64,000 bases of DNA from Naegleria gruberi. Taxonomy: Eukaryota. Every line of letters starts with the position of its first letter. Positions within the stretch are counted from its first letter, which is position 1. Position numbers and translations under genes: made by a program. Positions 21,105 through 63,786 of the stretch are shown here, one piece after another. Under the pieces are notes generated by a model that worked only from the letters and a program-made list of their open reading frames with translations, had not been told where the DNA came from and made no database searches. Where the stretch lies: NCBI GenBank assembly GCA_000004985.1, contig GG738909.1, one strand, 5' to 3'.

Positions 21105-24100
21105 ATGGATATGCGTGGATTGTCAGTGTTCATTTCCGACATTAGAAAATGTTAGTATATTGTTTTTTTGTTGGTTTTTTAACTGGCTTTTGGATATGAT
21201 GTTTTTGTTGTTGTTGTTTAAATATTCTTGTCATTATTAATTATAATCGATCCTGATCGTATTGTTGTATTATAATTACTTCCTTTTCAACAATACCAAT
21301 ACGATATTTAACAATGATTTAACTTGTGGATTATACACTCAACAATAATAATACAATAACAAAATAATAACAACAACAAATACTTGCGCGATGATACAAT
21401 AATTGCTCGCTGCTCTATCCAACACCTCTATTGTTGGTCGTCATCGATAATAACAACAACAAAATTTTTATTAATATTACACAATAATTAACAGCAACTA
21501 CAAAGGAAGAAGAACAATCTAAAGTAGAAAAAGAATTAGCCAAGATCAGAGGTAAATTCAAGAATGGTGGAGCTCTTAAAGGATATGATCGTAAGAAGTA
21601 TATCTGTAAATTGCTCTATATTTACATGCTTGGTTATGAAATTGAATTTGGTCACATTGAAGCCGTCAATTTGTTGGCTTCACCAAATTACTCTGAAAAA
21701 CATATGGGTTATCTTGCTTGTTCATTGTTGTTGAACGAAAATCACGAAATGGTTACACTTATTACCCAATGTATGAAGAATGATTTGAATAGCAAAAATC
21801 CAAATGATCAATGTTTGGCACTTACAGCTATTGCCAACATTGGTGGTAAGGAACAAGCTGAAGCTCTTGCTCACGACGTACAAAAATTGCTCATCTCCAA
21901 CGAAACCAAATTGACTGTCAGAAAAAAGGCTGCTCTTACTCTCTTGAATTTGCATAGAAAATACCCAGAAAGTTTGCCTCCAGATTCTTGGTCCGAAAAG
22001 GTTATTGCTCTTATCAATGGTAGAGATCTTGGTGTTATTACCAGTGTTATGAGTTTAATTTTGGGACTTGCCGAAAAGAATCCAGAAGCTTATCAAGATG
22101 CAGTTTCAAAGACTGCTCGTTTATTGATGAAGTTGGTTTTGAACAGAGAATATTCTACATCATATTTGTACTACAAGATTGCTGCCCCATGGTTGCAAGT
22201 TAAAGCTTTCCAATTACTCCAATACTACCCAGTTCCAGAAGATAAGGCCATCTATGACTCTATCATCCAAGCTATTGAAAAAGTTATTCAAATTGCTAAG
22301 AAATCAAAGGAAACTACATCAAAGAGTGTGAGTCAAATTAATGCTGCTCACAGTGTTCTCTTCGAAGCAATGAATCTTGCTATTCACTACGATTCATCAA
22401 AGACAATCTTGGTGACAGCTTGTTCCATGTTAACTAAATATTTGAAGGATAGAGAAACTAACTTGCGTTATCTTGCTCTTGATACTCTCTCACGTATGGC
22501 TTACTCTCAATTCGATGAAGTTTTGGCTACTATCAGAAAGGAACAAGATACCATTTTACTTGCTTTGAAGGATCCTGATATCAGTATTAGAAGAAGAGCT
22601 CTCGATTTGTTGTACAGTATGTGTAACAGAGATAATGCTGGTGAAATTGTTGGTGAATTGCTCAACTATTTGCCACTTTCCGACTATGCTATCAGAGAAG
22701 AATTGGTTTTGAAGATTGCCATTCTTGCTGAAAAGTTCTCTGTTGATCTCACTTGGTATGTCGATGTTGTTCTCAATTTGATTTCCCAAGCTGGTGACTT
22801 TGTTGCTGATGATATTTGGCACAGAGTTATCCAAATCGTCACAAACAAGGGTGAAGAATTACAAAAGTACACTGCTCAAACTGTTTTCAGTGCTGTTTCT
22901 TCTCCAGCTGCTCATGAAACTTGTGTCAAGATTTCTGGTTACATTTTCGGTGAATTTGGTGACTTGATTGCTGATAATCCTCAAACTGATGCTTTTTCTC
23001 AATATGAATTGATCTTGTCCAAGTTCAACTTGTGTTCAACCACTACTAAGTGTCATTTGTTCAACTCTTTGATGAAGTTGTACAATTTGTATCCTGATAA
23101 CCAAGGACTCCGTGATAATATTAAGGATGTTTTCGAAAAGCACACCAATTCTTTCGATGCTGAATTGCAACAAAGATCTGCTGAATATTTGGCTCTCATC
23201 AATACTGGTGATGAAGATCTTATTCAAGCTGTCATGGATAACATGCCAATGTATCCAGAACGTGACTCTCAAGTCATTAAGAGATTGATGGAAAAAGAAG
23301 CTGCCAAGAAGCGTGGTGCTACTGGTACAGGAAGAGAAAACAACGAAGACGAAGAAGAAGAAAATCCAGATTTGGATGTTCAAGTACCTGAAACCAAACA
23401 AGGTGGAAATGATTTGTTGGATATGCTCGATATGGGTGGTTCTTCAAATAACAATAATGCTGGAGGATATAGTATGGATGACATTTTGGGAGGATTTGGT
23501 GGACCAGTTTCTCAACCACAACCAACTAATAATGGAGGAGGTTTGAGCATGGACGATATTTTGGGAGGATTTGGTGGACCAGTTACTCAACCACCTGTTC
23601 AACAACCACCACAAAACAATGTTGGTGATTTCTTTGGAGGAGGTGTTAACATTGCTGCTCAAGCTGCCAACATGGGTAAGCAAAAGAAGGAACAAAGAGA
23701 TACTACCGGATTCAACTTTGATGATGTTGTAGTTGCTAACAGAGATAATGCTCTTGAACAAAACGAACAAGTCCATCAAGACGCTGCTGTTAAGCATCAA
23801 GTTTTGCTCAAGTCTAACGAAGGTGTTGCCATTGAAGACGAACATTTGCAAGTCAAGATTAAGACTGAATATCACGGATGTAAGGGTAGACTTATTCTCC
23901 TCTATGGTAACAAGACTACTAATCCATTGACTCAATTCAAGGTTCACATTCTCGTTCCAAAGGAATTGGAAGCTCAAATTTCCAAGGTTCCACCAATGAT
24001 TTCACCAAAGACTCAAGTCCAACAATACGTTGACTTGGTTGCTAAGGGCCCATTCAGCCAATTGACTGATTTGGATTTGTACTTTGAAGCTAATCGTAGA

Positions 24101-24502
24101 TATTACAGATTCAACATCAAGTTGCCAATCGTTCCACACAAGTTTGTTGAACCATTGGTCATCCAAGGTGCTGAAAACTTCTTTAAACAATGGCACGCAA
24201 TTGGAAAGGAACAAGAAGTCCAAAAGATTTTCCCATGCACTCCTGTATATTCTGATGTAAATGCCTGTGCTAAGGTTTTGTCTGAAGGTTTCCGTTTGGC
24301 CATTTTGACTGGTATTGACAATCCAAGTAATATTGTTGCTGCTGGTTCTTTCTTCTATGATCCTGTTGGTAAGGTTAACGTTTTATTACGTCTTGAATAC
24401 AATGCTCCAAAGCAAGCTTACAGATTAACTGTCAAGGCTCAAGATGCCACTATTGCTCAACAAGTTTTCAATTACATCTTACAAGAACTCACCTCCCAAT
24501 AA
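21105..24502 (+). CDS. AP2A: AP-2 complex alpha-adaptin; join(21105..21150, 21495..24502).
   Basis: - Exon 1 encodes MDMRGLSVFISDIRK, the conserved alpha-adaptin N-terminus.
- Intron: GTTAGT donor at 21151, acceptor AG at 21493-21494 (about 344 nt), phase 1.
- Exon 2 continues STTKEEEQSKVEKELAKIRGKFK...YICKLLYIYMLGYEIEFGHIEAVNLL.
- HEAT/ARM trunk, Gly/Pro/Gln-rich hinge with an internal repeat (MDDILGGFGGPVxQP twice) and a C-terminal appendage. Confidence 0.8.
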
Positions 24503-24622: not shown

Positions 24623-24714
24623 TACTCCAAAGTATTATTTGGAGATAGGTAGGCTTCATAACAGAGCTCAAAATAAATTACTCCAAAGTATTATTTGGAG
24701 ATAGGTAGGCTTCT
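24623..24714. repeat. 36-bp direct repeat (ttactccaaagtattatttggagataggtaggcttc) present twice, 20 bp apart. It spans the stop codon and 3' UTR of cyclase copy 1 and is absent from copy 2.
   Basis: Read directly: 24623-24658 is identical to 24679-24714. The homologous 3' end of the paralog at 53225-53290 carries a single copy. Confidence 0.7.
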
Positions 24715-27700
24715 TGATTGATTGTCAAGGTAATATTATCATTGTTTCTTGTTGGTGTTTTGGGTTCATTCAATGTTTCAAGATTTGCAGAATTTTTCTT
24801 TTGTAAAATGTTTAAACTTGTTCTCAACATGTCAGTGAAGGATGGAACAAGAGCTGGAGTGTGATGTTTCTCATGCAACATGTAAGCAATACATTCACCT
24901 TTTCCTTTCACATTTAAATGTCTTTCTTCAAAAGTGAAACCCAAATCATAAACTCTTTCGTAGGTTGATCTGGAAATTTGAATTCTTCCTGGAATTGAAT
25001 TAGATTCCATTCTTGAAGCTGTATTAATTGTATCTCCCCATAAATCCTATTTAATTAAATATTAAGATGAAGTATTGAAAATGTACATGTTAAAATGTTA
25101 AAATGTTGAAATTAAAAACATACATATGCAAATTTCTTCCTCCCAATAACACCTGCAATAACACTTCCAGTATTAATACCAACACGAATATTAATTTGTT
25201 CAGATGGATGTTTTCCTGATTTTGAATTAAATCTTTGTAAAACATCAAATGTATCAATGGAAAATCTCAAAATTCTTTCAGGATGATCTGATTGTGCATT
25301 CAATCCATGTAATCCACCCACACAAAAATATGAATCTCCAATCGTTTTAATCTTTTCCAAATTATACTTGTCTGTCAAATCATCAAATCCAATTACAATT
25401 TCATTCAACATTTGAACCAATTCAGATGCTTGAATTCCAGTACTCAATTTTGTAAATCCCACCATGTCACTAAAAAAACATGAAACATCATTGAATTTCT
25501 CTGCAATATAAGTTTCTCCTGATTTCAATTTACTTGCTACTGCACTTGGTAAAATATTCAATAATAATTCTTCAGAATGTTTCTTTTCTTCTGTCAATAA
25601 TGAATTATGTTTCTTCTCTGTTGTAATATCCTTAATGAAACAAGTTACAACACTTTGAGAATTGTGAAGAGTGGCAAAAATATTGACACGTGATGGGAAG
25701 CTTGTTTGATTCTTTCTGATACATTCCAATTCAATAGAATCTCCTTTCGAATCACCTCTTGCTGCATTCACCAACATTTCATCAATGAGGTTTTTAATTT
25801 TCGATTGCTCATTCTTTTCAAATAATTGATACAATGATCTTCCAATCGTTTCTGTTTGATTGTATCCAAATATCTTTTGAGCTGCTGGATTGAATATTTC
25901 AATATCAACCTTCTCTCCACTGCACATCACTGCTCCATCTACAGATGCATTCAAAATGCTTCGAACTTTTGAGTCACCTTCCCCTAAATTTGACTTCTTT
26001 TTGAGGAGGGAAGACAATGTATTTGGAATATGGTGATGTACAATGTAATTCTTGATATTTTCATTAGAATCCATTAACTCAATTGATAAATAGTTAAAAA
26101 GAAGACGAAGTTGTTGGACAGAGTTGGCATGTTGATGTAAGGACCAACGAATGGCAAGTGAAATGGAGATAATTGCAATAAATCCAACGAAACTGAATGC
26201 GTAGACAAGTTCTTCATCAGTTATGGCAGCATCTTTTGAAAAAACAGTAGAAAAATCAATCAATTGATCTGAAATGGCTCTGGAAAGATGGAAATGTTTA
26301 ACAAACGTTTCGAACAGCTTCAAGTTATTAATTTTTCCGTTTTCATCCATTAGCTCCATTATTTCATTGGAAATTGTGACGAAATTTGTAATCATATCAT
26401 CAATTCCCATAACGCACGAATGATTACCATCTTCTTTAAACATGTCAGTCAATGTACAATTTTCCTGACCTGCCACGAGTAAATTTACATCATCAAATTT
26501 TCCAAGTATGGTATTTTCTGGATTCTCTCCAATGGATGTTCCATAAATACATAAATTCCAATGGTTTTTCAAGTCACTTGATTTTTCAGTAACATAATGC
26601 TTTGGATTGGATGTAAAATTGTATAAATTAGAAACTCTGAAGAAAGCATCATTGTTGGAGCGAAATCCAGATATAATATACTTCTCAGTGATAAAATTAC
26701 TCAAATATTGAATATCTTCAAAAGTTTGGAATGATTCTTTCATAATAACATAGGATCCGTAACATTGATTCACATTTTGTAAAGTTTCCAATAAGAATAG
26801 CCCACAACAAACTGAAACAATTAGAGAGAGAATAAGAGCCAATACAACTACAACACTCCTTGGATATTTCCAAACACTCTTGACTGGATGAGTTGATGTA
26901 TCATCATTGACTACCTTACTCAATTCATGGAATAATCTTCCTGCATCATTTTTTGAAACATTCTTCTCAATGAGAAGAACTATCTTTGTTATAACAGATA
27001 GATCTAACTTAGAGTAGAATACATAAAGAGATGTATAGAGGAAGTAGACTGTCACAATGATGGAAAAGTAAATGATAAAAGTATTAGTAATTAGTTGAGT
27101 TTCATCCTTTGAACTGGAAACAAAATTCACACAAAAATCAGAATAGGCAGTAACCATTCTCTCGGAATTAAAGTACTGCACATGATTAGAATAAAACTCT
27201 AGAACAACTAACTTACCAATAACATAAAGGGATAACTTGACAGAAAACTCTCTAGGTCTGCTAGTCCAAATTTAGAAATAGTTTCAGAGTGTGTATAGAA
27301 TAAATTTGTAATATCTGCAATAGTGGTATTAGTAGTGGTCGAAATGTTATAAACCTTATCGATTTCTGTTGCTGGCCATGAAGTTGGTAAATTGAAAGTG
27401 TAATAAATTTCATGATATTCAGAGTACATTTCCTGTGTGAATTTTCCGTCATGAACCAATTCTCGCACTGATTTCAAAATGTCCCTGTAAGTATTAATGT
27501 GTTCTAACATTTCTTCATGATAATGTTCCAAAGAAGTATATCCATACTTGGACATGACATTCATCCATTCAACCATTGAGTGATTGTACAAATATGTGAT
27601 TGGTTGAAAAGCTCTCATACTAGACATGATCTGAACAGAGGCGCCAACTGGAGCACAAGCTGTTTCCACTATTTTAACAGTGCCTGAAATATAGGATGAG

Positions 27701-30087
27701 AATGAAACACTCAAAGCCAAACTAACACTCAAAAACAAGATGGAAAATAAGACAAATAGAGAGAAGAGGAAAACTTGGAGAGTGTGTCTGTGTGGAAGGC
27801 TCAGTGAAGTTCTGAATACGTTTTCCTTTCTAAATTCTGGATTATTCTCAATTCCATTGAATTCTGGATTGGTTTCTGCCTCTTTCTGATCGCCATAGAA
27901 TGAACTGCTCTCACTTCTAATGTCGTGTTCCTGGAGATGGATACCAATATTTGGGCCTTCTTGTGTTGGAACTATTCTGTTTTTAAACTTGGACTTTTGA
28001 TTCCTCTTCTTTCTTAATTGAGCATTTCTTTTGGTTTCTTCCTCTTCCAAACTTGATGCTTCAGCATACAGCTCTTGAGCAGCATCCTTATTAAACTTGA
28101 ATTCTTCAATGTATTTGGCAAAATTTCGTAATAAATTCTTGTCATTCTTATAAATTGCCAACATGTTCAAAAACTTGGTTTCACATTCATTGGAAATAAT
28201 TCCCATTCTTACAATGATTGATTCAATCTTATCCCTCAAGACACATTCCTGGAGCATTTCCTTCCAGAACATTCTGTGAAGGGCTTTCAATTCATTTTGT
28301 CTCCTTTCGAGAATGAACATTACTTCACTCATTTCTTCAGTATTTTTGGCATTTGGATTAATTTGATGAACTATAATGTCAACTTCCTTCTGTTTCAAAT
28401 AGATGAGGAATCTATACCATGTATTTGGTCTCTTTTTTATGGCTCTCCTTAAAATTCCTTTGGAAAATGTTGTGGCATTGACATCATTTACGAGACAATT
28501 TGATGCTATAGAACTTGATAAGAGAAGAATATCATTATCGAGTTGTGAGTTGAGTGATGATATACCTCTAACAAGAGAAAGAGACATTTTCAGATTGCTC
28601 AACATATTTGGATTGCTGGAAAGAGTTGGATCTTCTTCATCTGTTGGAATCTTTTCCTTAATGGAGAATTTCAAAAAAAGTTTCAGATAATTCAACTTTT
28701 TGGATTCTAGAAAGTATTGGTAAATATTAATGGAATCCTTCTCGATTGCCTTTTCCAGTAAATCAGGGAAACCATTATTAGATTCATTTCTAATACCTTC
28801 AATTACAATAAATCGAACACTTCTAATCAAAATTCTTGTAATCGCCTCCATTACCATCATTCCAACAAAAAAAGAGATGATAATCATTGCCAAAGTCATT
28901 CCAGCTAGACCAATTCCCAGCACATTATCAACTGACTTGTAAATTGCCGAAAGATTTGGATTATTTACAACGCCACTAATTAGAGAACCAAAACTTGAGA
29001 AGATCCTTGCAGATAACACTCCAACCATAATGGAATTCTCAAATCTCTTAAAATATGGAACGTTTTTCGAAAAACCAATCATTAAACCAATCGAAACTAT
29101 CAAATGCACAATCGATCTGATAAATGCATACTGAGGAGGAATCACATAATGTGAAAGAATTTGGAATTGAGTACAAATCATTGTTCCAATAAGGAAAATT
29201 GGATGATCAGAAGTGAATGGAGAAAAGTGTTGGGGATGACAATTCGTCACAATTAATAGAGAAAAACATGATAATATCATTTGAATGATTATTCCAATAA
29301 TCATGATGGCCATGAAGGCAATATTAATAGTTGAATAACATTCAATGTTCTGGTTTGAATATTGTAAAAAACGGTTGAGAACTGAGACAGAACCAAGATT
29401 ACAATCAAGTGGTGTTGTCAATAGGTAAACAGCTGGAAGAGAAACGAGTAGAAAAAGTTTCGAACCAAGGGCCAAACCTTTCTTTGTCCATTTCAAATAT
29501 TGAGAAGTTGTTTTGTAAGCATACACACTCCAAACCAAGTAAACAATAAATAACAGCTCTACAGCTATAACCACAAACGCTAGAGCCAACGAACCTATAT
29601 AAGGTAACCTTTCGAATGATAAAGTCAAAGGATAGTTCAATACAGAAAAAACCCATGTTCCCCACTCTCCGTATTTCATTTCCATTCCAAGATTTGGCAA
29701 GAATATACCAATCCAAAATACATAAGTATGAAATAGTAAACTAATCAAATAGGAATATAGACCTTCTCTTAATTGTGCCTCTTGCATGAAGAATATAAAA
29801 TCCATAAGTTGATTTCTGAGCTTGATTCCAATCGAAATCTCAGAGCCAGTAATATCTGTTGTTGAATATTTGGAATGTTGGGACGAGAAGGATACATTTG
29901 ATGAGCTAGAGGTATGTTGTCCATGAACTGAGGGAATATTCAGATAACTTGTTGGAGTCGTCTGGTTTCTAGCAACGGTTGACCCACGACGTGAAGTACT
30001 AGCAATAGAGATTGAATCCTCTTCTATGGCAATATTGTTGTTGTTAGTATTATTCAATTGATTTATACTAGCATTGGGATGCAACAT
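24678..30087 (-). CDS. Multi-TM, PAS-domain, class III adenylyl/guanylyl cyclase, copy 1; complement(join(24678..25046, 25124..27175, 27217..30087)), about 1763 aa.
   Basis: - Two clusters of TM helices, a PAS-like segment (ILNASVDGAVMCSGEKVDIEIFNPAAQKIFGYNQTETIGRSLYQLF), then the cyclase domain (FSDMVGFTKL, KIKTIGDSYFCVGGL, DLWGDTINTASRMES).
- Intron 27176-27216 (41 nt, GTAAGT..CAG, phase 0).
- Intron 25047-25123 (77 nt, GTATGT..AG, phase 0) splits FAY|DLWGDT.
- Paralogous to 47986-53257. Confidence 0.8.
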
Positions 30088-30563
30088 GTTTTTTTGTAGT
30101 TGTTTTGTTGTAGACTTTCGTTTGGAATGAATCTAAGAATTATTTTCTAATCCATTGTTTGAAACTTTCTGATTTAAACTTGATAGAGAATTTGGATATA
30201 AATAGAAATATTAAGCAGTGTACCGTTAGAATTTAAAATACAATAATGAGCTAGATGTGTTTTCAGGTAATGCACATATACAGATTATGTAATTCTTGAA
30301 GAAGTATTAAATAACTTCATTTAACTTCATTTAGCTAGAATGCTAGCACCATACAATTATACATCAGATTGATTCATTATGAAAACATGTCTGTGTCCAT
30401 TTAAATACAGTTCCCTGTTTGCATTCCGTGCTTGTAATATAATAATAATTACTATCATCATTAGTGATAATTATCACTACATATTCGAAAAATCAGCTGC
30501 CAAGTATCATCTGTAGTTTTTTTTACGTTATTTTTGGTGGGAAATTTTTAGGGAAAGTTTTCT

Positions 30564-32405
30564 GTGGAGGAGTGTGATAAAATTTTCAAAGCAATAGATA
30601 AACCAAATTTATATCTTCTAACAACGTTTCTTAAAAAACCAATAGATATGCAAAGGAAAAGGGACTTGTGGAAGCAATTTGATAACATGATTCAGAAAAT
30701 GTCAATTCAACAAAAGAAAAAAACATCAATTCATATTTGTGGAATTTCATCATTAGGGAAATGTGCCAATACAATTTCCAATCGGCAATGGATTATTTCT
30801 ACTTGGTGAAGAGAAAATCTAGCTTTATTGGAGAAGTACACTTTGAATAATTTATTAAATTCGTGCAGTACTTTTGGAACGTGGGAGGCTGAGTTTATAT
30901 TTCGAAACATTGAGGCACGTGACAAGTTTCATTATTCCTGCTACATCAAAGCTGGATGCACCACAAAAGAATCTGCTTTAAAGCTGGAAGAATTAATTAT
31001 TAATAGTGGATTTTTCAATGATATAATTGTCCAAACAAGCCTCATTTCTATGTTCTCCAAGTGTGGGTTATTAGAAAGGTCTATTGAACTGTTCAACAGC
31101 ATGGAGAAGAAACCAACAGCAAGATGGAATGCAATGCTTTCCGCATACGCACATCACTCTCTTTACAATGAAGTACTACTGTTATTCAGCGAGATGGAGG
31201 AATCTTCAATTGAGACGGACAAGCAAACTTTTAGCTATGCTATTCTAGCCCTATCGAGTCTTGGAAAATCTCACTATCATGCACTAATCAAGGGATGTAT
31301 TAACAGTTCGAATTTCTCAAGCTTTGAATGTTTTAGAGCTGATGAAAAGAAAGCGAATTCCACTAAGCTCTCGAATATTTATATCACTCATGAATGAATG
31401 CATCAAAAGTGGTATTTTGTATGATGCAAAAGTTTTACATCAAGAAATTGTTGAAAATCTACCTTCTTTTTTGTCTGATCCCTTTCTGGTAGTGTCATTA
31501 ATTAATATGCTTGGTTGTTTCAATCAGTCCCAGGCAGTATTGGATGTTTTTGGTGGGTACAATGGACAAGATGTGGCCGTGTTAAATGTTACATTGTCAG
31601 CTCTTTACAAGGATGGTTTAATTCATAATGCTCTCAATCTATTCTATGAAAATACGAAAAATTACAAGTTTGATGAAAAAACATTTACAATTATTTTAAC
31701 AATGTGCAAAGACATGCAAAACGACGATAGTGTAAAGGGTCAACAATATTTTGAAATGATGAAACAATATGAAGTTGAACCAAATATCTTCCATTATACA
31801 TGTCTTATCAAGTGTTTTCTCTCAGAAAAGCAATTTGAAAGGGCTCTGGATATTCTCTTTGATATTCATTTGAAAGGAATTCTAATTGATGATGCTTGCT
31901 TTAACTCTTCCGGGGGGTCTCTTTAAATCATGATCATTATGAAAATTACAATGGAATTGCATCAAATAATCATCACGATGAAGGAAACTTTTCATTCTTC
32001 TTTTATTGATTTCTGTGCCCAGTACAGTATGAGAGAATTGGCTGGTAGAGTTCACATATAATGAAAGATTTTGGACATAAACCAAATATACAACTCTTCA
32101 ATATGCTAAATATGTACTTGAATGTTGGAAATTTTGAAAAAGCTCTAGAACTGTATAAAGAATTAAGAAATCAAGCCAATATTATCACTTGCAACATTCT
32201 CATATCTGGATTAACTTTGAATGGGCAGGGTAAAGAAGCTATTAGGATATTCAAAGAAATGAATATAGCCCCTAATGGCACCACATTTGCTGCAGTGTTG
32301 AATGCATGTAGTCATTGTGGATTAATTAAGGAAGGATTTCAAATCTATGAAAGTATGCAAACAAATCATGGTATTGAACCAGATGGTCGGACTTTTAATG
32401 TTTGA
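30564..32405 (+). pseudogene. Plant-type PLS-class pentatricopeptide repeat (PPR) gene, degraded: in-frame TGA, at least two frameshifts and a C-terminal truncation.
   Basis: - PLS-style repeats: LISMFSKCGLLERSIELFNSMEKKPTARWNAMLSAYAHHSLYNEVLLLFSEMEESSIETDKQTFSYAILAL and ITCNILISGLTLNGQGKEAIRIFKEMNIAPNGTTFAAVLNACSHCGLIKEGFQIYESMQTNHGIEPDGRTFN.
- In-frame TGA at 30807-30809.
- Frame-3 to frame-1 shift at about 31311-31320, and a further shift between 31926 and 32061.
- The ORF ends at 32405, where the duplicated coiled-coil segment begins, with no E/DYW extension. Confidence 0.6.
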
Positions 32406-32430
32406 CAACCAACCTACATTAAAAGTTATT

Positions 32431-33898
32431 GTAACCTTACAAAAAAACTATTATTGGAGAGATGGTGAACTTTGCTATTGTGGTAATTTCCCGCACTTTC
32501 TATTTTCATTTTTCAACAACAAAAAAAACAAATCAAACAATTATTTAAATAATAATCTAAAACAATTGATAAGAAAGAAAATGTGTACTAATAATAATAA
32601 TAATAATACTCTCACTGGTAAATTAATCATGAGAAAGAACAAGGAAGAAAGTATTGAAAAGGTTTTCCAATTAATTAATTTCGGAGGCTTGAATGAATCT
32701 GTTAGAGAATTTGTTCAAGATTTGTCATCTGCTACTTCTTCTGATGAAGTGTTATTATCCACTTTCAAGATCAAGGCTATTGTTCCATCTTCTGAGAAGA
32801 GAAAAACAATTTATATAATTAATAATGAAAATGATTTTTCTGAAATGATGAAATTAATTCAAGAAATTCCACAAGATAAACCAATTCTTTTCAGAGTAAT
32901 GAAGAAGAAATTGAATCATGAAAAGAAGGAAAGAAAGGAAAAGAAAGAAAGAAAGGTCAAACTTCAATTGACTGAAGAACAATCTCAAAGTCTTTCCGAA
33001 AAGAAGCAACAAGTTGAATTATTGAAAGATGAAATTAAGATGAAGAAGGAACAAATCAAGACTATCAAATTTGAAATGAAATCTTTGAGAAAGTCATTCC
33101 ATCATGTCAATGTTAGCATTGACTCAAATGTTCCATCTACTATTAAGTCATCTCCAAACAAGGAAGAAAGACTTAAACTCAAACTTGAAAAGAAGGAAGA
33201 AAAGAAAGCTTTCAAATTGGAAAAGAAGTTACTCAAAGCTCAATACAAGCTTGAAAAGATTGCATTGAAGAAGCAAAGAAAGCAACAAGGAAATACTTCT
33301 ACTCAACCAGAAACTGTTTCAACTACCACAACTTCTAGTGAACCAACTGTTCCAATTAACGTACCTATTGTTGAACCAGTAATTGTTACTGTACCACCAG
33401 TTCAACAAGTAACAACTGAACCAGTTTCCAACAATGATGAGATTGTCACTCCAACTGTTGATGCAAGGCTCTTGTTGAAACTCCAAAAAAAGGAACAAAA
33501 GCATGCTTTGAAAATGGAAAAGAAACTTGAAAAACAAATAATCAAAGCTCAAAGAAAATTGGAGAAACAAGGTCAAAAGCAAGAGAGAAAGGAAAGAAAA
33601 TTGTTAGAAAAGCAACAAGTTACCACTCCTTCTCAAAATTAATATTAGTTTAGAATAATTTTAACAACTATCATCAGAGAACTATTCATCAATCGTAATT
33701 TCTCCCTCCACATTTGTTGTGTCTGAGAGAATGAATTGTGAAATAGATTTTACTGAGATAGTTTAATTGCACCAGTCAATCATGATATAGCTGGATTTAA
33801 GGATCATGAAACAAATCTAAACAATATCTTGTAAATAACAAAATAAATCAATGTTACACAATTGTATGGCAAGTTTTCTATTTATTGTGGGACTATTG
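32431..33898. repeat. Segmental duplicate B, left arm. The inverted partner is 62227-63690, at about 95-97% nucleotide identity.
   Basis: Partial aligned comparison of the 5' flank, coding sequence and 3' flank. The coiled-coil proteins differ at about 16 of 355 residues, plus a poly-Asn length difference (N6 vs N8). Confidence 0.8.
32581..33642 (+). CDS. Lys/Glu-rich coiled-coil protein, copy 1 (353 aa).
   Basis: ATG at 32581. Poly-Asn tract, a globular N-terminal region and long K/E-rich heptad-like repeats (KLEKKEEKKAFKLEKKLLKAQYKLEK...). A nearly identical inverted copy lies at 62488-63555. Confidence 0.6.
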   Translation: MCTNNNNNNTLTGKLIMRKNKEESIEKVFQLINFGGLNESVREFVQDLSSATSSDEVLLSTFKIKAIVPSSEKRKTIYIINNENDFSEMMKLIQEIPQDKPILFRVMKKKLNHEKKERKEKKERKVKLQLTEEQSQSLSEKKQQVELLKDEIKMKKEQIKTIKFEMKSLRKSFHHVNVSIDSNVPSTIKSSPNKEERLKLKLEKKEEKKAFKLEKKLLKAQYKLEKIALKKQRKQQGNTSTQPETVSTTTTSSEPTVPINVPIVEPVIVTVPPVQQVTTEPVSNNDEIVTPTVDARLLLKLQKKEQKHALKMEKKLEKQIIKAQRKLEKQGQKQERKERKLLEKQQVTTPSQN

Positions 33899-33998
33899 TA
33901 AATATGACAATGTACCAAAGGTTAGTTTAAAAAAAAGAAAACAAAGGTAAAGAAAAAGGAGTGAATACATTTATATTTCACACTTTAAGAAATTGAAT

Positions 33999-34119
33999 GG
34001 CTACGGCCATATCACGATGAATGCACCTCATCCCGTCCGATTTGAGAAGTTAAGCATCGTCGAGCCACATCAGTACTGAGGTTGGAGACAACTTGGGAAC
34101 CTGTGGTGCTGTAGTCTTT
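33999..34119 (+). rRNA. 5S: 5S ribosomal RNA gene (solitary).
   Basis: GGCTACGGCCATATCACGATGAATGCACCTCATCCCGTCCGATTTGAGAAGTTAAGCATCGTCGAGCC...GGGAACCTGTGGTGCTGTAGTC matches the universal eukaryotic 5S pattern (GCCTACGGCCATACC...CCCGTCCGATCTG..GAAGTTAAGC...GGGAA...GGTGCTGTAGGC). About 120 nt. Confidence 0.85.
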
Positions 34120-41972: not shown

Positions 41973-42044
41973 TCCCGTGTAGTCCAATGGCTAGGATACC
42001 TGGCTTTCACCCAGGAGGTCCGGGTTCAATTCCCGGCATGGGAG
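41973..42044 (+). tRNA. tRNA-Glu (anticodon TTC).
   Basis: TCCCGTGTAGTCCAATGGCTAGGATACCTGGCTTTCACCCAGGAGGTCCGGGTTCAATTCCCGGCATGGGA folds as a cloverleaf. The 7-bp acceptor stem has one G-U pair and the anticodon loop is CTTTCAC. No encoded CCA. T-runs follow at 42051-42060. Confidence 0.85.
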
Positions 42045-47985: not shown

Positions 47986-50900
47986 ATGACATCTCTCAAT
48001 GTTAATGTGTTTGACGATAGAGGTTCAAACAGTTCTCAAAGTAATTCGAGGGTGCTGCTCTCTCCACCTCAGGGAGCCAACAATTACTTACTAATTCCAA
48101 CCAGTAACTATGCAGGATCATCAGTATGTTCCTCTGACAGACATTCCAAAACTGACATTTCAGGTTCTGAAGTTAATGCGGTAACAAAACTGAAGAACTC
48201 GACTTTGGAGTTTGTACTCTTCATACAAGACAACCAAGTGAAGGAGGGAATCTATGGTTATGTGATAACCTTGTTGATTCACTTGTACATGTTTTGGATT
48301 GGAATTTTTCTACCAAATCTTGGACCAGAAATGATGTACGGAGATTGGGGAACATGGATTTTCTCAGTACTCAACTATGCTATTACTCTCTCATTTGAAA
48401 GGATCCCTTATAAGGGAGGTATTGTATTGGCTTTTATTGGAGTAGGTATTGTATTGGTATTTGTAATTCTATTGATCTGGACAATCTTTGCCTACAAGAC
48501 AACCTCCCAACATTTAAAGAACTCGAGAAGAGCTATTGCCATCTTTTCCAAAGTATTTCCATTCATATCAGTACCTCTCTTGTACTTGATGACATTCTCT
48601 CTTGATTGTAATTATACAGTAAGCTCATCAAATCTGAATAGATTTGAATTCTATTCCCATGAGGTGATCCAATGCCACGATACTAGCAATATTATATTTG
48701 TGGTGGTAATGATCTTGGCCATCCTGTTATTGATTATACTCAATGTATTCTCCATGCTCATTGTACCAAACTGCCATCCTCAAAATATAGCTCCATTTGT
48801 GACCGATAATCCAGTTTTCATGAGCTTGTTAGTTGCCTTCAATCTGTGGCAACTCTTTTTACACTTTATCATTCCAACACAATACTCTTTTATGAGAGCT
48901 ATTGTTCATAGTGTTGGATCTATTATTTTAATTATAATTTTTGCCAAGCTGATTCCATTCATTAGAAGAATTGAGAATAGTATTGTATTTGGTTGCCTGT
49001 TGGCTAGATTAGCTTCGAGTATTGGAGCTATTGTAACTTCTATTGTAAATAACCCATCCCTATCAAAGATACTGCCATCGGTGGATAATACACTTGGTGT
49101 TGGACTTGCAGGTCTAACTATTGGTTTGATTATTATTGGTTTTGTGCTTGGTTTCTCCCTTATGGAATTGTATACGAGATTTATTGTGAGATCTATTAGA
49201 AACTTTGTTCTGGAATGTATTCAATCAGATAATGATGAAACAAATCTAGATTCCAAAGAAACTGAAAAATACATTGAGAAAGAAGCACAAATTATTTATC
49301 AACAGTTGGTTGAGTCAAGAAAATTAAGGCACCTTAGAATATTCTTTAAATTTTCTATGAAATTCAAAGAAAAATATCCAACGGAAAAATCAGAAACGCC
49401 CACACAGCACAATCTACTCGATATTTATATTTGTATTGCTCTGATTAAGGGGTTCTCTTCCAATAACCAATTAGATAATGAGATTATCCTTCTCTCTAGT
49501 ATGATTATTGCAAATTATTTGCCAAACGAGGTCAATTCTACAACATTTGCTCAAGGACTTTTGAAGAAAGCTTTTAAAAGAAGACCATCCACTTACTATA
49601 ATTTATTAATTAGTCTAGCTCAAAAACAAGTAGAAGCAACGGTCTATCAAACCAATCCAGAGAGCAGAAACAATGTTGAAATGGCCAAGCTTATTGGTCA
49701 CTTAGAAAGAAGACAGGATGAATTACGAGCACTTCACAGAGCTTTCTGGAAGGAAATCATGCAAGAAAATATCAATCATGAAAAATGTGAATCTATTATT
49801 GTAAGGATTGGGATATTGTCTCATGAATGTGAAACTAAATTCAAGAATTTAATGCACATTTACAAAAACGACAAGACAGTTCTTCGATGTGTTGCTAAAT
49901 ATGTAGAATCTTTTAAATTCAATAAGGAAGCTGCTCAGGAATTATATTCTGAAGCAACAACAATTGAAGAAGAGGATTCCAAACGAATGAATGCCTCCTC
50001 TAAAAGAAGAATTAAAAAGAACCAAAAGAACAGAGTGCATCCTCAACAAATCAGTCACGCTTTTGAGACGTTATCTTATGGTGATGCTAATCATCATGAG
50101 GTAGAGTCCACTGTTGTAGGAGATTTGAATAACGATTTTGGTGGTGTTGAGAATAATCCAGAATTGAAGAAGGAGCTTCTGTTCAGGAATGCATTGGCCA
50201 TCTCACATAAGAATCATTCACATCTCACAATGTTTTTCATTTTCATTGTGCTATCCTTGCTAATTTTGGTTTCAACATTAGTAATGAGCTTGATGTTTTC
50301 GAATTATGTTACTGAGAGCGTACTTGTTGTGGATACTGCCTGTACACCGATTGCATCTGCTATTCGAATTGTTAGTGGAACAAGAAGTTATCAGAGCTCT
50401 CTATTGTTGTACAGTTCCAATTCATCAGCTTGGCCTTCATTATTGGCAGAATATGGCTACTCGAGCCTTTCTGAATTCAAGAAAGCTCACAAGAAAGAGC
50501 TAAGGGATAATATTGATTACTTAATTCTATTGAAAGAGCTAGCACAAACAGCCAAGTTTACCACTGATATGTACTCTGAATTTCATGAATACTACTATAG
50601 CTTTAATCAACCAAAGGCAAATACTAATGGTTTGGAAAAGATTTACAACTCTACCACAGCTATCAATATTACCATTGCAGATATTACTAATTTGGCTATA
50701 ACCTATTCAGAGCAGATTTACAAATTTGAAGATGAGGATTATCTACATACTTTCAGCAGTTATCCTTTCATGATACTATTCAACAATAGGAATATTATGA
50801 CAGCAGCTTATTCTTCATTCTGTTACAAATTTGTTGAGGAATCCAAGAGCTATACCAAGACGATTTCCAATACTTTTATTATTTACTACTCTTGCTCAAT

Positions 50901-53257
50901 TGTTGTTTATTTTACTTACACTGCTATTTATTTGTGCTTTGCAAGATTGGATTTGTCTTTTTTGAAAAAGCTTATTGTTTTATTGGAAAAGAATGTGTCA
51001 AAGCATGAAGCAGGAAAAATGTATCACAATTTGGGCAAGCTAGTCCAAGATGACAGCTCTGTAAGACCGGCCAAGAACTCTGCTTTATACCCTAGGAATG
51101 TTGTGGTAGGATTGGGAATTGTGACAGCAATCTGTGTTGCACTCTGTGCTGGTTTGTTCCTAGCTCAAACTCTCAGCAATTCTCAATACAGCTTTGAGTC
51201 CTATGTCACCATGAGGGATGCTTTCAATGCATTAGAAAACTCCCAATATATTGCAGAAGCGATAACTGAGGAATTCATTAATTTAAAAATTGCTGACAAA
51301 ACATTTATTAATGGATTGGTTTCATCTAATACTGAGCGTTCTGAATCTATTCAAGCATCAATTAAGAAATTAAGATTCTATTGGAATATGTGCATGTATG
51401 GGTCTAATTATTACCCAGATGAGACTCTTGTGATTGGTCTTTTCGAAAAGACTGATTTGATGATAAAGGGAGAAGCTAATTGTACATTTGAAAAGATGAT
51501 TTCACATAATTGCAGCATTGGTGTTGATAAATTGATCACAACTTACACGACTAAAGCCACACAACTCACAGAAGATATTGATCTCAAATCAACAACATTT
51601 GAATCATTATTTGATGACTATTTGGTAGTTAGTTTTTTCTCTACCTATGTAAGCAATTCATTACTGTCATTTTCAGATGTATTTGCTATGGCTGCCTCTG
51701 TTCCATCAGACAAGTTGGTGATTCCATTTGCCATTCTTGGATTTTTGACTTTGTTTATATTCTCGATTGGTATTTACATGTCAATGGGAAAGTATTTCAA
51801 TTCAGTCCAACAACTGCGTCTTCTTTTCAATTATCTACCTCTAGACTTGATGGACTCAAACGAAAATATTAAGAATTATATTGTACATCATCATCTTCCT
51901 GACTCATTCTCAAACATTTTTAGAAGAAAGAAAGGTTCTTCATCAGAGGGCGACTCAAAAGTTCGAAGCATTTTGAACGCATCTGTAGATGGAGCAGTGA
52001 TGTGCAGTGGAGAGAAGGTTGATATTGAAATATTCAATCCAGCAGCTCAAAAGATATTTGGATATAATCAAACAGAAACGATTGGCAGATCATTGTATCA
52101 ATTATTTGAAAAGAATGAGCAATCGAAAATTAAAAACCTCATTGATGAAATGTTAGTGAATGCAGCAAGAGGTGATTCGAAAGGAGATTCTATTGAATTG
52201 GAATGTATCAGAAAGAATCAAACAAGCTTCCCATCACGTGTCAATATTTTTGCCACTCTTCACAATTCTCAAAGTGTTGTCACTTGTTTCATTAAGGATA
52301 TTACAACAGAGAAGAAGCATAATTCATTATTGACAGAAGAAAAGAAACATTCTGAAGAATTATTATTGAATATTTTACCAAGTGCAGTGGCAAGTAAATT
52401 GAAATCAGGAGAAACTTATATTGCAGAGAAATTCAATGATGTTTCATGTTTTTTTAGTGACATGGTTGGATTTACAAAATTAAGTACTGGAATTCAAGCA
52501 TCTGAATTGGTTCAAATGTTGAATGAAATTGTAATTGGATTTGATGATTTGACAGACAAATATAATTTGGAAAAGATTAAAACGATTGGAGATTCATATT
52601 TTTGTGTGGGTGGATTACATGGATTAAATGCACAATCAGATCATCCTGAAAGAATTTTGAGATTTTCCATTGATACATTTGATGTTTTACAAAGATTTAA
52701 TTCAAAATCAGGAAAACAACCATCTGAACAAATTAATATTCGTGTTGGTATTAATACTGGAAGTGTTATTGCAGGTGTTATTGGGAGGAAGAAATTTGCC
52801 TATGTATGTTTTTAATTTCAACATTTTAACATTTTATTGTGTAAATTGTACATTTTCAATATTTCATATTAATATATTAATTAAATAGGATTTATGGGGA
52901 GATACAATTAATACAGCTTCAAGAATGGAATCTAATTCAATTCCAGGAAGAATTCAAATTTCCAGATCAACCTATGAAAGAGTTTATGATTTGGGTTTCA
53001 CTTTTGAAGAAAGACATTTAAATGTGAAAGGAAAGGGTGAATGTATTGCTTACATGTTGCATGAGAAACATCACACTCCAGCTCTTGTTCCATCCTTCAC
53101 TGACATGTTGAGAACAAGTTTAAACATTTTACAAAAGAAAAATTCTGCAAATCTTGAAACATTGAATGAACCCAAAACACCAACAAGAAACAATGATAAT
53201 ATTACCTTGACAATCAATCAAGAAGCCTACCTATCTCCAAATAATACTTTGGAGTAA
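47986..53257 (+). CDS. Multi-TM, PAS-domain, class III adenylyl/guanylyl cyclase, copy 2; join(47986..52803, 52889..53257), about 1728 aa.
   Basis: Same architecture as copy 1. Intron GTATGT at 52804, acceptor AG at 52887-52888 (85 nt), splitting FAY|DLWGDTINTASRMES. There is no intron at the position of the copy-1 41-nt intron. Confidence 0.8.
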
Positions 53258-53840
53258 TTTATTTTGAGCTCTGTTATGAACAAAGATGAGTTCTAAATGA
53301 AAGACCTCCAGTGAATAGGCTTGCCAAACGAGGTGCAAGATTAAGCAACAAATCCCAAAATGAGAATTGATTGTGTTTACACTCCGTAATTCACATCAGC
53401 GGTGTTGCTCAGTTTGGAAGAAATTCAAATGGTTCATATTGAGATATTTCACTTTGATAGTTTGATAGGGATGAGTATATTCTGTATTGACTTAATAAAT
53501 TGTAGTTAACCATCAGTTTACTTCACAATAAAGATGTGTAAGTGTATTAATGTCTCTTGTATCAAAAACGACCTGAGAGACCACACTTTTCGGCATTTAA
53601 GGACTCTGTGCAACATTTGAATGATTTGGGTTAAGATTGAGTGCCTAAAGTAGGCAGTTTACTTCACATAATACGCACTTCTAGTTGCTTTCATGTGTTT
53701 CAGAGTAATAAGACGGTGCCATTTTCTGTTGTTCCAACTAAAGAATTTTTCACCACTGTCACATGCAAACCGCCCTCTATGAGAAAACTAATCTTATCAT
53801 ACGTAATTAGTCAACCAATTACTTTCCATCTCATAAAAAA

Positions 53841-62048: not shown

Positions 62049-62226
62049 CGTCGATACACTTTGAAATATTTGTTTTTGTGTTTTGATGGTGCCCCTGTTT
62101 ATATTAACTGCGAGATGATTGTTTGTACGATGCTACAAGCTTACTAATATCTCATAAATCTGCTACCGTATTGAACGTTTACGGTTGTGATACAGTATTT
62201 GAATACAAAATACAATCTAACATGTG

Positions 62227-63690: not shown

Positions 63691-63786
63691 GTTTTTTTGT
63701 AAGGTTACAACAACTTAATTAACGCCAATCTTGCTTCACCTTTAATAAAAACAAGAACAAATTTCCAATACTCAACTCTTTCAACT

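What the first reader, a model, noticed from the sequence alone, without database searches (positions are those of the whole stretch)
30564..32405. Degraded plant-type PLS-class PPR gene, a candidate relic of horizontal transfer
The repeats carry hallmark PLS-class signatures: WNAMLSAYAHHSLYNEVLLLFSEM, GQGKEAIRIFKEM...TTFAAVLNACSHCGLIKEGFQIYESMQTNHGIEPDG. These are characteristic of land-plant organellar RNA-editing factors and are otherwise known only sporadically, in a few protist and bdelloid lineages.

The genomic context here is non-plant: short introns, an animal-like gene set, AP-2, K2P and ELMOD. The copy is dead. It has an in-frame TGA at 30807, frameshifts near 31315 and between 31926 and 32061, and it is truncated at 32405, at a duplication breakpoint, before any E/DYW domain.
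Basis: partly seen in the sequence, partly recalled or inferred. Interest (0 to 1): 0.6.

Follow-up and report, generated by a model that had tools for sequence, protein, structure and literature searches.

The report
Dead PLS-type PPR gene, Naegleria
This is a broken, truncated copy of a plant-like RNA-editing-factor (PLS-class PPR) gene, but the genome is Naegleria gruberi, an amoeba already known since 2010 to carry this gene family, so it is an ordinary pseudogene and not a new case of gene transfer.

Summary
The sequence observation holds. Window 30552-32402 (+) encodes about 615 codons of pentatricopeptide repeats with a PLS-type P/L/S arrangement. They are interrupted by two frameshifts (about 31310 and 32049-32061) and an in-frame TAA (31924). 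The array ends at a TGA (32403-32405), 15-18 nt before a 1.49-kb inverted segmental duplicate (32420-33905, partner 62211-63720). No E or DYW domain follows anywhere in the window.

The window is Naegleria gruberi: its AP-2 alpha ORF is identical to the NCBI N. gruberi protein. N. gruberi was the first non-plant organism reported to have DYW-type PLS PPR proteins (11 genes, two mitochondrial C-to-U editing sites, ancient transfer from plants proposed).

The fragment has host-like GC and codon usage and is at most 35% identical to any protein in a 1.84-billion-protein library. It carries few lesions, so it lost function recently, at roughly the age of the adjacent duplication (2.2% divergence).

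I could not retrieve N. gruberi's own DYW proteins, so its position within that family is untested. Interest is low.

The parts
30552..30809 (+). Weakly PPR-like 5' remnant in frame 0. It begins in the middle of an S-like motif ('GKFSVEECDKIFKAIDKPN') directly after a stop codon, has no usable start codon or N-terminal region, and ends at TGA 30807-30809.
   Evidence: No Pfam hit. 6.2-bit match to S-P-L positions of a PLS profile. No plant tblastn match upstream of 30810.
30810..31313 (+). Frame-0 block of PPR motifs. Clear L-S-P-L run: L 30918-31022, S 31023-31115 ('IIVQTSLISMFSKCGLLERSIELFNSMEKKP'), P 31116-31220 ('TARWNAMLSAYAHHSLYNEVLLLFSEMEESSIETD'), then L from 31221.
   Evidence: Pfam PPR_2 3.7e-13. 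87.8-bit domain against a profile of 38 plant PLS proteins. Aligned without gaps to the L-S-P-L units of the synthetic PPR-DYW protein 9kfx.
31288..31394 (+). Interval that must contain the frame 0 to +1 shift. The most likely position is about 31305-31318, inside a PPR motif ('...YHALIKGCINS|SQALNVLELMKRK...'). There is no room for an intron.
   Evidence: Three-frame translation. tblastn of the conceptual protein joins at 31310/31315.
31315..31923 (+). Frame +1 block reading P-L-S, then P2-like, L2-like ('DEKTFTIILTMCKDMQNDDSVKGQQYFEMMKQYEVEPN') and S2-like ('IFHYTCLIKCFLSEKQFERALDILFD') motifs.
   Evidence: Pfam PPR_2 3.1e-10. 79.9-bit domain aligned to profile positions 806-997, the P2-L2-S2 region. 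No E motif follows in any frame.
31924..31926 (+). In-frame TAA nonsense codon next to a G6 run (31911-31916). The surrounding motif is degenerate in all three frames.
31927..32058 (+). Degenerate L-like motif in frame +1 ('...ITMELHQIIITMKETFHSSFIDFCAQYSMRELAGRVHI'). The +1 to 0 frameshift lies at 32049-32061.
   Evidence: domain 4 begins at residue 475, nt 31981.
32058..32402 (+). Frame-0 terminal block: S 32082-32177, P2 32178-32273, L2 32274-32381 ('NGTTFAAVLNACSHCGLIKEGFQIYESMQTNHGIEP'), then 7 codons of an S2-like start.
   Evidence: Pfam PPR_2 2.7e-20. 87.9-bit profile domain. It aligns to residues 320-376 (P2-L2) of synthetic PPR-DYW 9kfx, 236 residues before that protein's end. It also ends exactly 47 residues before the Pfam E motif in three plant DYW proteins.
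32403..32405 (+). TGA that ends the array 7 codons into S2. No E1/E2/DYW lies downstream.
32420..33905 (.). Copy 1 of a 1.49-kb inverted segmental duplicate (partner 62211-63720). It carries a complete gene for a 336-aa Lys/Glu-rich protein with no Pfam match. Its left edge lies 15-18 nt after the PPR stop codon.
   Evidence: the repeat finder I1/I4/I5, 95-98%. Edges from alignments. 32 substitutions (2.2%) and about 7 indels in the homologous core. In copy 2 the sequence beyond the same edge is the 3' end of an unrelated gene.

Best explanation
The locus is a non-functional fragment (pseudogene) of a PLS-class pentatricopeptide-repeat gene, sitting in the nuclear genome of Naegleria gruberi. 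That amoeboflagellate already has a documented, lineage-expanded family of plant-like PLS/DYW PPR genes.

How intact members work is established for plants and inferred for Naegleria. They are imported into mitochondria. The P/L/S repeat array reads the RNA upstream of a target cytidine, one motif per nucleotide, and the C-terminal DYW cytidine deaminase converts C to U.

This copy cannot do that. It has no recognisable start or N-terminus. Its array is broken by two frameshifts and at least one nonsense codon. It stops 7 codons into an S2-like motif, so it has no E1/E2 or DYW domain.

The 3' end coincides, within 15-18 nt, with the edge of a 1.49-kb segmental duplicate. The most likely history is therefore a rearrangement that cut off the 3' part of the gene, or placed a gene fragment here, followed by a short period of neutral decay.

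Shown: PPR and PLS identity, the lesions, absence of E/DYW, host identity, host-like composition, and the duplicate's edge.
Inferred: that it is untranscribed or non-functional, that the ancestor carried a DYW domain, and that the rearrangement caused the inactivation.
For: Host is N. gruberi: the AP-2 alpha ORF is identical to the NCBI N. gruberi protein, versus 87% to N. lovaniensis and 76% to Willaertia. The window also holds TmcB-TPR/PAS/cyclase genes.

The family is known in this host: 11 DYW-type PPRs, 2 editing sites, lineage-specific expansion, and a proposed transfer from early land plants (PMC4202320; PMC3239186).

PLS class:
- 16 of 22 word-index hits carry the Pfam E motif and 7 carry DYW.
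- The exhaustive search gave 13,843 hits. All 13 of the 20 sampled top-150 hits that carry a source name are lycophyte, fern or conifer PLS proteins.
- 19 of the 38 top hits have an E motif.
- A profile built from those 38 hits matches the fragment at 249 bits in P/L/S register.
- The best solved-structure match is a synthetic PPR-DYW protein, 2.2e-60, ahead of designer P-type PPRs.

Truncation register. Lesions.

Not in the annotated proteome: no protein of high identity turned up in either search, although N. gruberi proteins are in the collection.

Host-like composition: GC 0.34 and GC3 0.31, against 0.31-0.39 and 0.26-0.33 for 11 host ORFs; RSCU correlation r = 0.79.

Recent decay: 4.8% of possible substitutions would create a stop. 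One or two observed stops in 1.6 kb therefore imply about 1-3% neutral divergence, similar to the 2.2% between the duplicate copies.
Against: - I could not retrieve N. gruberi's own DYW-type PPR proteins because plant sequences saturated every hit list. The fragment's relationship to those 11 genes is assumed, not shown.
- No protein anywhere exceeds about 35% identity, so no parent gene was identified. For a pseudogene that appears young, that is slightly odd.
- A second L2/S2-like unit sits mid-array. L2-like motifs in this lineage are therefore not restricted to the C-terminus, so the 'about 236 aa missing' figure is only a minimum, and the ancestor may never have had a DYW domain.
- There are no transcript data.
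- The RSCU control was weak: an out-of-frame reading scored r = 0.81.
Confidence: 0.8

Rival explanations
1. The gene is intact and functional in the organism, and the frameshifts, stop codons and truncation are sequencing or assembly errors. Under this reading the inverted duplicate would be a mis-join.
For: The TAA at 31924 lies next to a G6 run and one possible upstream shift lies at an A-run. The window contains several 98-100% identical inverted repeats, the kind of sequence that can confuse assemblers. The reading frames between lesions are long, at 168, 203 and 115 codons.
Against: At least four independent lesions are present. The two clear frameshifts are not in long homopolymers. There is no start codon or N-terminus. 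No E/DYW sequence occurs anywhere in 64 kb. The duplicate copies differ by 2.2% plus indels, so they are real separate loci and not a collapsed repeat. No annotated N. gruberi protein corresponds to the locus.
Confidence: 0.06
2. It is a relic of a separate, recent horizontal transfer from a plant, independent of the known Naegleria PLS/DYW family.
For: All named best hits are land-plant PLS proteins, mostly lycophytes, ferns and conifers. No Naegleria protein appeared in any hit list.
Against: Identity to any plant protein is only 22-35%, far too low for a recent transfer. GC, GC3 and codon usage are indistinguishable from host genes. Plant dominance of the lists is expected from database size and from scores that sum over many repeats. 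The host already has the family.
Confidence: 0.03
3. One or more of the remaining ORF pieces is still expressed as a short PLS-only RNA-binding protein. It would act with a DYW deaminase supplied in trans, as E-class PPRs do with DYW1/DYW2/MEF8-type partners in plants.
For: Long open pieces persist in an AT-rich genome, where random ORFs average about 13 codons (from the stop-codon frequencies at 33% GC). The last piece starts with ATG and contains a well-preserved S-P2-L2 unit. PLS-only proteins without E/DYW exist in an unidentified AT-rich eukaryote (P0293).
Against: None of the pieces has a targeting sequence or more than about 5 motifs. The persistence of open pieces is explained equally well by recent inactivation. 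There is no expression evidence.
Confidence: 0.06
4. It is an ordinary P-class mitochondrial PPR (LRPPRC/PTCD-like) whose PLS resemblance is superficial.
For: Designer P-type PPRs also score well against it (for example 6een, 1.3e-48). The middle of the array is less clearly PLS-like.
Against: S-type motifs of 31-32 aa carrying the 'MFSKCG/MY..G' signature alternate with P and L motifs. The 'ACSHCGLIKEGFQIYESMQTNHGIEP' L2 signature aligns to L2 of a synthetic PPR-DYW and of plant DYW proteins. The best hits are PLS proteins bearing E/DYW. Natural P-class ribosomal and PPR10-type proteins score far lower.
Confidence: 0.03

Closest known systems
DYW-type PLS PPR proteins of Naegleria gruberi (Knoop & Rüdinger 2010; Rüdinger et al. 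2011; as summarised in PMC4202320 and PMC3239186)
   Same: Same organism. Same repeat class, a P/L/S array with an L2-type 'ACSH.GL..EG....SM....GI.P' motif. Same intron-less, AT-rich coding style as host genes.
   Different: It lacks the E1/E2 and DYW deaminase domains that define those 11 genes, lacks a start, and carries frameshifts and stops. It is not represented among annotated proteins. Direct sequence comparison with the 11 genes could not be made.
Land-plant PLS-class organellar RNA-editing factors (E, E+ and DYW subclasses), including the consensus-designed 'Synthetic PPR-DYW protein' PDB 9kfx
   Same: Motif order, motif lengths and signatures match. The terminal block aligns to P2-L2 of 9kfx (residues 320-376) and ends 47 residues before the E motif in three plant DYW proteins.
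   Different: Only 22-35% identical overall. A second L2/S2-like unit lies mid-array. The P2 motif is 3 residues short. There are no C-terminal domains. It sits in a heterolobosean nuclear genome.
PLS-only PPR protein P0293/P0271 from an unidentified gene-dense, AT-rich eukaryote in metagenomes (JGI 3300057245; Logan SRR29605744)
   Same: AT-rich, amino-acid composition unlike plant proteins. Each of its repeated S-P-L triplets has an L2-like L motif. It is 29-35% identical to the fragment's terminal block at four separate triplets.
   Different: It is intact (835 aa) and lies in a gene-dense contig. Its own closest named relatives are again plant PLS proteins. Its organism is unknown.

Membership tests
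PPR superfamily (Pfam PF01535/PF13041) | Tandem ~35-aa helix-turn-helix repeats that match the PPR profiles above the gathering threshold | tested here: met
   PPR_2 scores of 49.8, 40.4 and 72.6 bits (threshold 30) in the three pieces.
PLS subclass of PPR proteins | Alternating P (35 aa), L (35-36 aa) and S (31-32 aa) motifs with their characteristic signatures | tested here: met
   A profile of 38 plant PLS proteins aligns L-S-P-L (residues 123-237), P-L-S-P2-L2-S2-like (244-434) and L-S-P2-L2 (475-610), 249 bits in total. Ungapped alignment to the PLS units of synthetic PPR-DYW 9kfx. No curated P1/L1/S1/P2/L2/S2 models were available, so single-motif calls are approximate.
PLS subclass of PPR proteins | The closest relatives are PLS proteins carrying E/E+/DYW extensions, not P-class proteins | tested here: met
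   16 of 22 hits have E motif PF20431 and 7 of 22 have DYW PF14432. 19 of the 38 top exhaustive-search hits have an E motif. Named top hits are plant PLS proteins.
E / DYW-type RNA editing factors | C-terminal E1/E2 motifs after S2 | tested here: not met
   No Pfam E_motif hit in any piece or frame. The array stops 7 codons into S2.
E / DYW-type RNA editing factors | DYW cytidine-deaminase domain (HxE, CxxC zinc site, C-terminal DYW) | tested here: not met
   tblastn of nine plant PLS proteins, seven with a DYW domain, against all 64 kb finds no E or DYW segment. The single E = 0.54 match at 7381-7488 lies in a kinase-like ORF.
Naegleria gruberi PLS/DYW gene family | Encoded in the N. gruberi nuclear genome | tested here: met
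   The AP-2 alpha ORF 7 kb upstream is identical to the NCBI N. gruberi protein.
Naegleria gruberi PLS/DYW gene family | Groups with the 11 described N. gruberi DYW-type genes in sequence comparison | not testable with these tools
   The N. gruberi PPR proteins never appeared in the capped hit lists, which plants saturate. The N. gruberi genome is not in the contig index.
Pseudogene | Disabling lesions relative to functional homologues | tested here: met
   Two frameshifts, TAA 31924, TGA 30807, no start, 3' truncation.
Pseudogene | Lack of expression or of selective constraint | not tested
   No transcript data, and no orthologous locus. Synteny with N. lovaniensis and Willaertia ends at the AP-2 alpha gene itself.
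Recent horizontally transferred DNA | Composition or codon usage foreign to the host, or high identity to a donor | tested here: not met
   GC 0.34 and GC3 0.31, within the host range. Best identity to any protein is 35% or less.

The most novel reading that the evidence does not exclude
The fragment is the last trace of a PLS gene lineage in Naegleria that is distinct from the 11 described DYW-type genes. It has no relative above about 35% identity anywhere, yet it appears to have been inactivated only recently by a segmental rearrangement. That would make it a direct snapshot of ongoing birth-and-death turnover in a horizontally acquired editing-factor family whose members far outnumber the known editing sites (11 genes versus 2 sites). 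Alternatively, its open pieces may still make a PLS-only RNA binder.
Probability: 0.12. Interest if true: 0.35.

Novelty: new member of a known kind. Interest (0 to 1): 0.15.

Why it matters
It matters little beyond annotation. It adds one apparently unannotated, recently inactivated PLS-type PPR fragment to a family already described in N. gruberi. It hints that the family is still turning over through segmental rearrangement. That fits the published puzzle that N. gruberi has many more DYW-type PPR genes than known editing sites (PMC4202320). It does not provide new evidence for or against the plant-to-Naegleria transfer hypothesis.

Tried and rejected
1. Retrieving N. gruberi's own PLS/DYW proteins failed. 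I tried the word-index search with the conceptual protein, the exhaustive representative search (with names checked), and a search seeded with the only non-plant-looking hit, P0293. All returned plant or anonymous metagenomic PLS proteins and no Naegleria.

2. Exact-product look-ups of three window ORFs and of the NCBI N. gruberi AP-2 alpha protein found nothing. The N. gruberi genome is therefore not in the contig index.

3. Synteny gave nothing. In N. lovaniensis and Willaertia magna only AP-2 alpha itself is shared with the window, so no orthologous PPR locus could be found.

4. The metagenome scan for close relatives found only two 22%-identical loci, L005 and L006. The ORF examined at L006 is an intact PLS-E-DYW gene.

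5. I considered that 30700-30830 reads better as a PPR motif in frame 2 ('NSYLWNFIIREMCQYNFQSAMDYFYLVKRK'), which would imply extra frameshifts. Pfam gave no support, so I dropped the idea.

6. I considered that the mid-array S2-like motif is followed by a decayed E motif, which would make the locus a fusion of two gene ends. No E-motif signal appeared in any frame.

7. Introns cannot explain the frame changes. The motifs continue seamlessly across both junctions, and the only GT..AG pair at the first junction spans 10 nt (sequence).

8. My first motif scan used consensus motifs recalled from memory. I replaced it with profile-based and PDB-based alignments.

9. Three papers (Rüdinger 2011, Schallenberg-Rüdinger 2013, Knoop & Rüdinger 2010) are not held in the library. 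Their content is cited only through PMC4202320.

Full report
**What is in the sequence.** Window 30552-32402 on the + strand can be read as about 615 codons if one follows frame 0 (30552-31313), frame +1 (31315-32058) and frame 0 again (32058-32402).
- Pfam finds PPR repeats above threshold in each of the three main pieces: PPR_2 at 3.7e-13, 3.1e-10 and 2.7e-20.
- Frame 0 is closed by TGA at 30807-30809.
- The first frame change must lie within 31288-31394. Motif continuity ('...YHALIKGCINS|SQALNVLELMKRK...') puts it at about 31305-31318.
- Frame +1 has an in-frame TAA at 31924-31926, beside a G6 run.
- The second frame change lies within 32049-32061.
- The reading ends at TGA 32403-32405.
- Neither frame change can be an intron. 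The repeat continues without any spare sequence, and the only GT..AG pair at the first junction spans 10 nt.

The one qualification concerns the 5' part, 30564-30809. It has no Pfam hit, no plant tblastn match, and only a 6.2-bit match to S/P/L positions of a PLS profile. It begins mid-motif, immediately after a stop codon, with no plausible start or N-terminal region. The fragment looks cut or decayed at its 5' end as well.

**Is it PLS class?** Yes, by several independent tests.
- A word-index search gave 22 significant hits. All named ones are plant proteins, 16 carry the Pfam E motif and 7 carry the DYW deaminase domain.
- An exhaustive HMMER search of 1.84 billion representatives gave 13,843 hits at E<=1e-3. 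All 13 of the 20 sampled top-150 hits that carry a source name are lycophyte, fern or conifer PLS proteins. Of the top 38, 19 have an E motif.
- A profile built from those 38 proteins matches the fragment at 249 bits in four domains that respect P/L/S register: L-S-P-L at residues 123-237, P-L-S-P2-L2-S2-like at 244-434, and L-S-P2-L2 at 475-610.
- Among solved structures the best match is a consensus-designed 'Synthetic PPR-DYW protein' (9kfx, 2.2e-60), ahead of designer P-type proteins. Natural P-class proteins such as PPR10, PAP2 and mitoribosomal rPPRs score far lower.
- The terminal block (32103-32381) aligns to residues 320-376 (P2-L2) of 9kfx, 236 residues before that protein's end. In three plant DYW proteins it ends exactly 47 residues before the Pfam E motif.

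So the array stops 7 codons into S2, and everything that would make an editing factor catalytic is missing. No E or DYW sequence exists anywhere in the 64 kb. The single E = 0.54 match falls in a kinase-like ORF.

One caveat applies. The middle of the array also contains an L2/S2-like unit with no E motif after it. An AT-rich metagenomic PLS-only protein, P0293, has L2-like L motifs in every triplet. 'About 236 residues missing' is therefore a minimum, and the ancestor need not have carried a DYW domain.

**Whose genome is it?** The AP-2 alpha ORF 7 kb upstream (21611-24499) is identical to the NCBI 'predicted protein [Naegleria gruberi]' over every aligned segment: 571/572 residues, where the one mismatch is the ORF's TTG start, and 259/259 residues. 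The gaps are introns in the deposited gene model. Identity is 87% to N. lovaniensis and 76% to Willaertia magna. The window's 31-38% GC, long intron-poor ORFs and TmcB-TPR/PAS/cyclase genes fit that host.

N. gruberi is the first organism outside land plants reported to encode DYW-type PPR proteins. It has 11 such genes and two verified mitochondrial C-to-U editing sites. The family is described as a lineage-specific expansion, probably acquired by ancient horizontal transfer from early land plants (PMC4202320; PMC3239186).

The 'animal-like gene set' impression came from ordinary eukaryotic housekeeping genes.

**Is it a separate or recent transfer?** Nothing suggests so.
- The fragment's GC (0.34) and GC3 (0.31) fall inside the range of 11 host ORFs (0.31-0.39 and 0.26-0.33).
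- Its codon usage correlates with the host set at r = 0.79, against 0.66-0.96 for individual host genes. An out-of-frame control scored similarly, so this test is weak.
- No protein anywhere is more than about 35% identical, and collinear identity to plant proteins is 23-25% over about 500 residues.

**How and when it died.** A 1.49-kb segment (32420-33905) is duplicated in inverted orientation at 62211-63720. It holds a complete gene for a 336-aa Lys/Glu-rich protein of unknown family. Homology between the copies begins 15-18 nt after the PPR stop codon. Beyond that edge, the sequence next to copy 2 is the 3' end of an unrelated gene. Beyond the right edge of copy 1 comes a 5S rRNA gene, not the rest of a PPR.

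The event was therefore not a simple insertion into an intact gene. Either a rearrangement removed the 3' part, or a gene fragment was placed here.

The two copies differ by 32 substitutions (2.2%) and about 7 indels. In the PPR fragment, 4.8% of possible substitutions would create a stop. One or two observed stops in 1.6 kb correspond to about 1-3% neutral divergence. The fragment also keeps open stretches of 168, 203 and 115 codons in a genome where random ORFs average about 13 codons. Inactivation was therefore recent and of roughly the same age as the duplication. That the rearrangement caused the inactivation is an inference.

**Mechanism.** Intact PLS-DYW proteins bind organellar RNA through their repeat array and deaminate a specific cytidine with the DYW domain. 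This is established for plants, and for Naegleria it is inferred from the co-occurrence of the genes with two editing sites (PMC4202320). This copy has no start, a broken array and no deaminase, so the best-supported reading is that it does nothing (confidence 0.8).

Rivals, each given low probability with reasons in the structured fields:
- assembly error hiding an intact gene (0.06);
- residual expression of a short PLS-only binder that works with a trans-acting DYW (0.06);
- a separate recent transfer from a plant (0.03);
- a P-class PPR (0.03).

**What could not be done.** I could not obtain the sequences of N. gruberi's 11 DYW-type proteins. Every capped hit list was saturated by plant PLS proteins, and the N. 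gruberi genome is not in the contig index. The fragment's placement inside that family rests on host identity and repeat class, not on a tree. Synteny with N. lovaniensis and Willaertia ends at AP-2 alpha itself, so no orthologous locus was available. The primary papers by Knoop, Rüdinger and colleagues are not held.

**Verdict.** This is a recently decayed, truncated and apparently unannotated member of a gene family already known in this organism. It is a new member of a known kind, and interest is low (0.15).

Noticed in passing
window 33999-34117 (+): A complete 5S rRNA gene (Rfam RF00001, 105 bits) lies about 90 nt beyond the right edge of the 1.49-kb duplicate copy 1. It is not part of the duplicated segment.
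   Followed up: partly
window 24655-25981 and 51946-53280 (inverted): Two TmcB-TPR/PAS/adenylate-guanylate cyclase paralogues lie at 25112-30087 (-) and 47986-52815 (+). They share 98-100% identical 3' ends and downstream flanks (902 nt and 404 nt), while the rest of the genes have diverged. This suggests gene conversion or a recent partial duplication between inverted paralogues. The order of this repeat pair and of the 32420/62211 pair does not fit one single inverted duplication.
   Followed up: partly
window 25112-27181 and 27208-30087 (-): The cyclase/PAS ORF and the TmcB-TPR ORF on the minus strand are separated by only 26 nt. Together they mirror the single 1609-aa ORF at 47986-52815. 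They are probably one gene with a short intron or a lesion.
   Followed up: no
window 32632-33639 (+) and 62488-63555 (-): The duplicated segment encodes a 336/355-aa Lys/Glu-rich, probably coiled-coil protein with no Pfam match. The 22 substitutions within the copy-1 ORF (32632-33639) introduce no frameshift.
   Followed up: no
window 41973-42044 (+): tRNA-Glu (anticodon TTC), found by both ARAGORN and Rfam.
   Followed up: no
L003 867-3374 (JGI metagenome 3300057245) and L004 (Logan SRR29605744): An intact 835-aa PLS-only PPR protein (P0293) with no E/DYW. Every triplet has an L2-like L motif. It sits in a gene-dense, apparently intron-poor eukaryotic contig next to TRAPPC8 and a peptidase C39-like gene. 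Related metagenomic proteins include one with a DYW domain (P0346). The organism is unidentified and may be another non-plant PLS-bearing protist.
   Followed up: partly
window 23453-23594 (+): A tandem 75-nt (25-codon) direct repeat at 87% identity lies inside the AP-2 alpha hinge region. The deposited N. gruberi gene model splices out part of this region.
   Followed up: no
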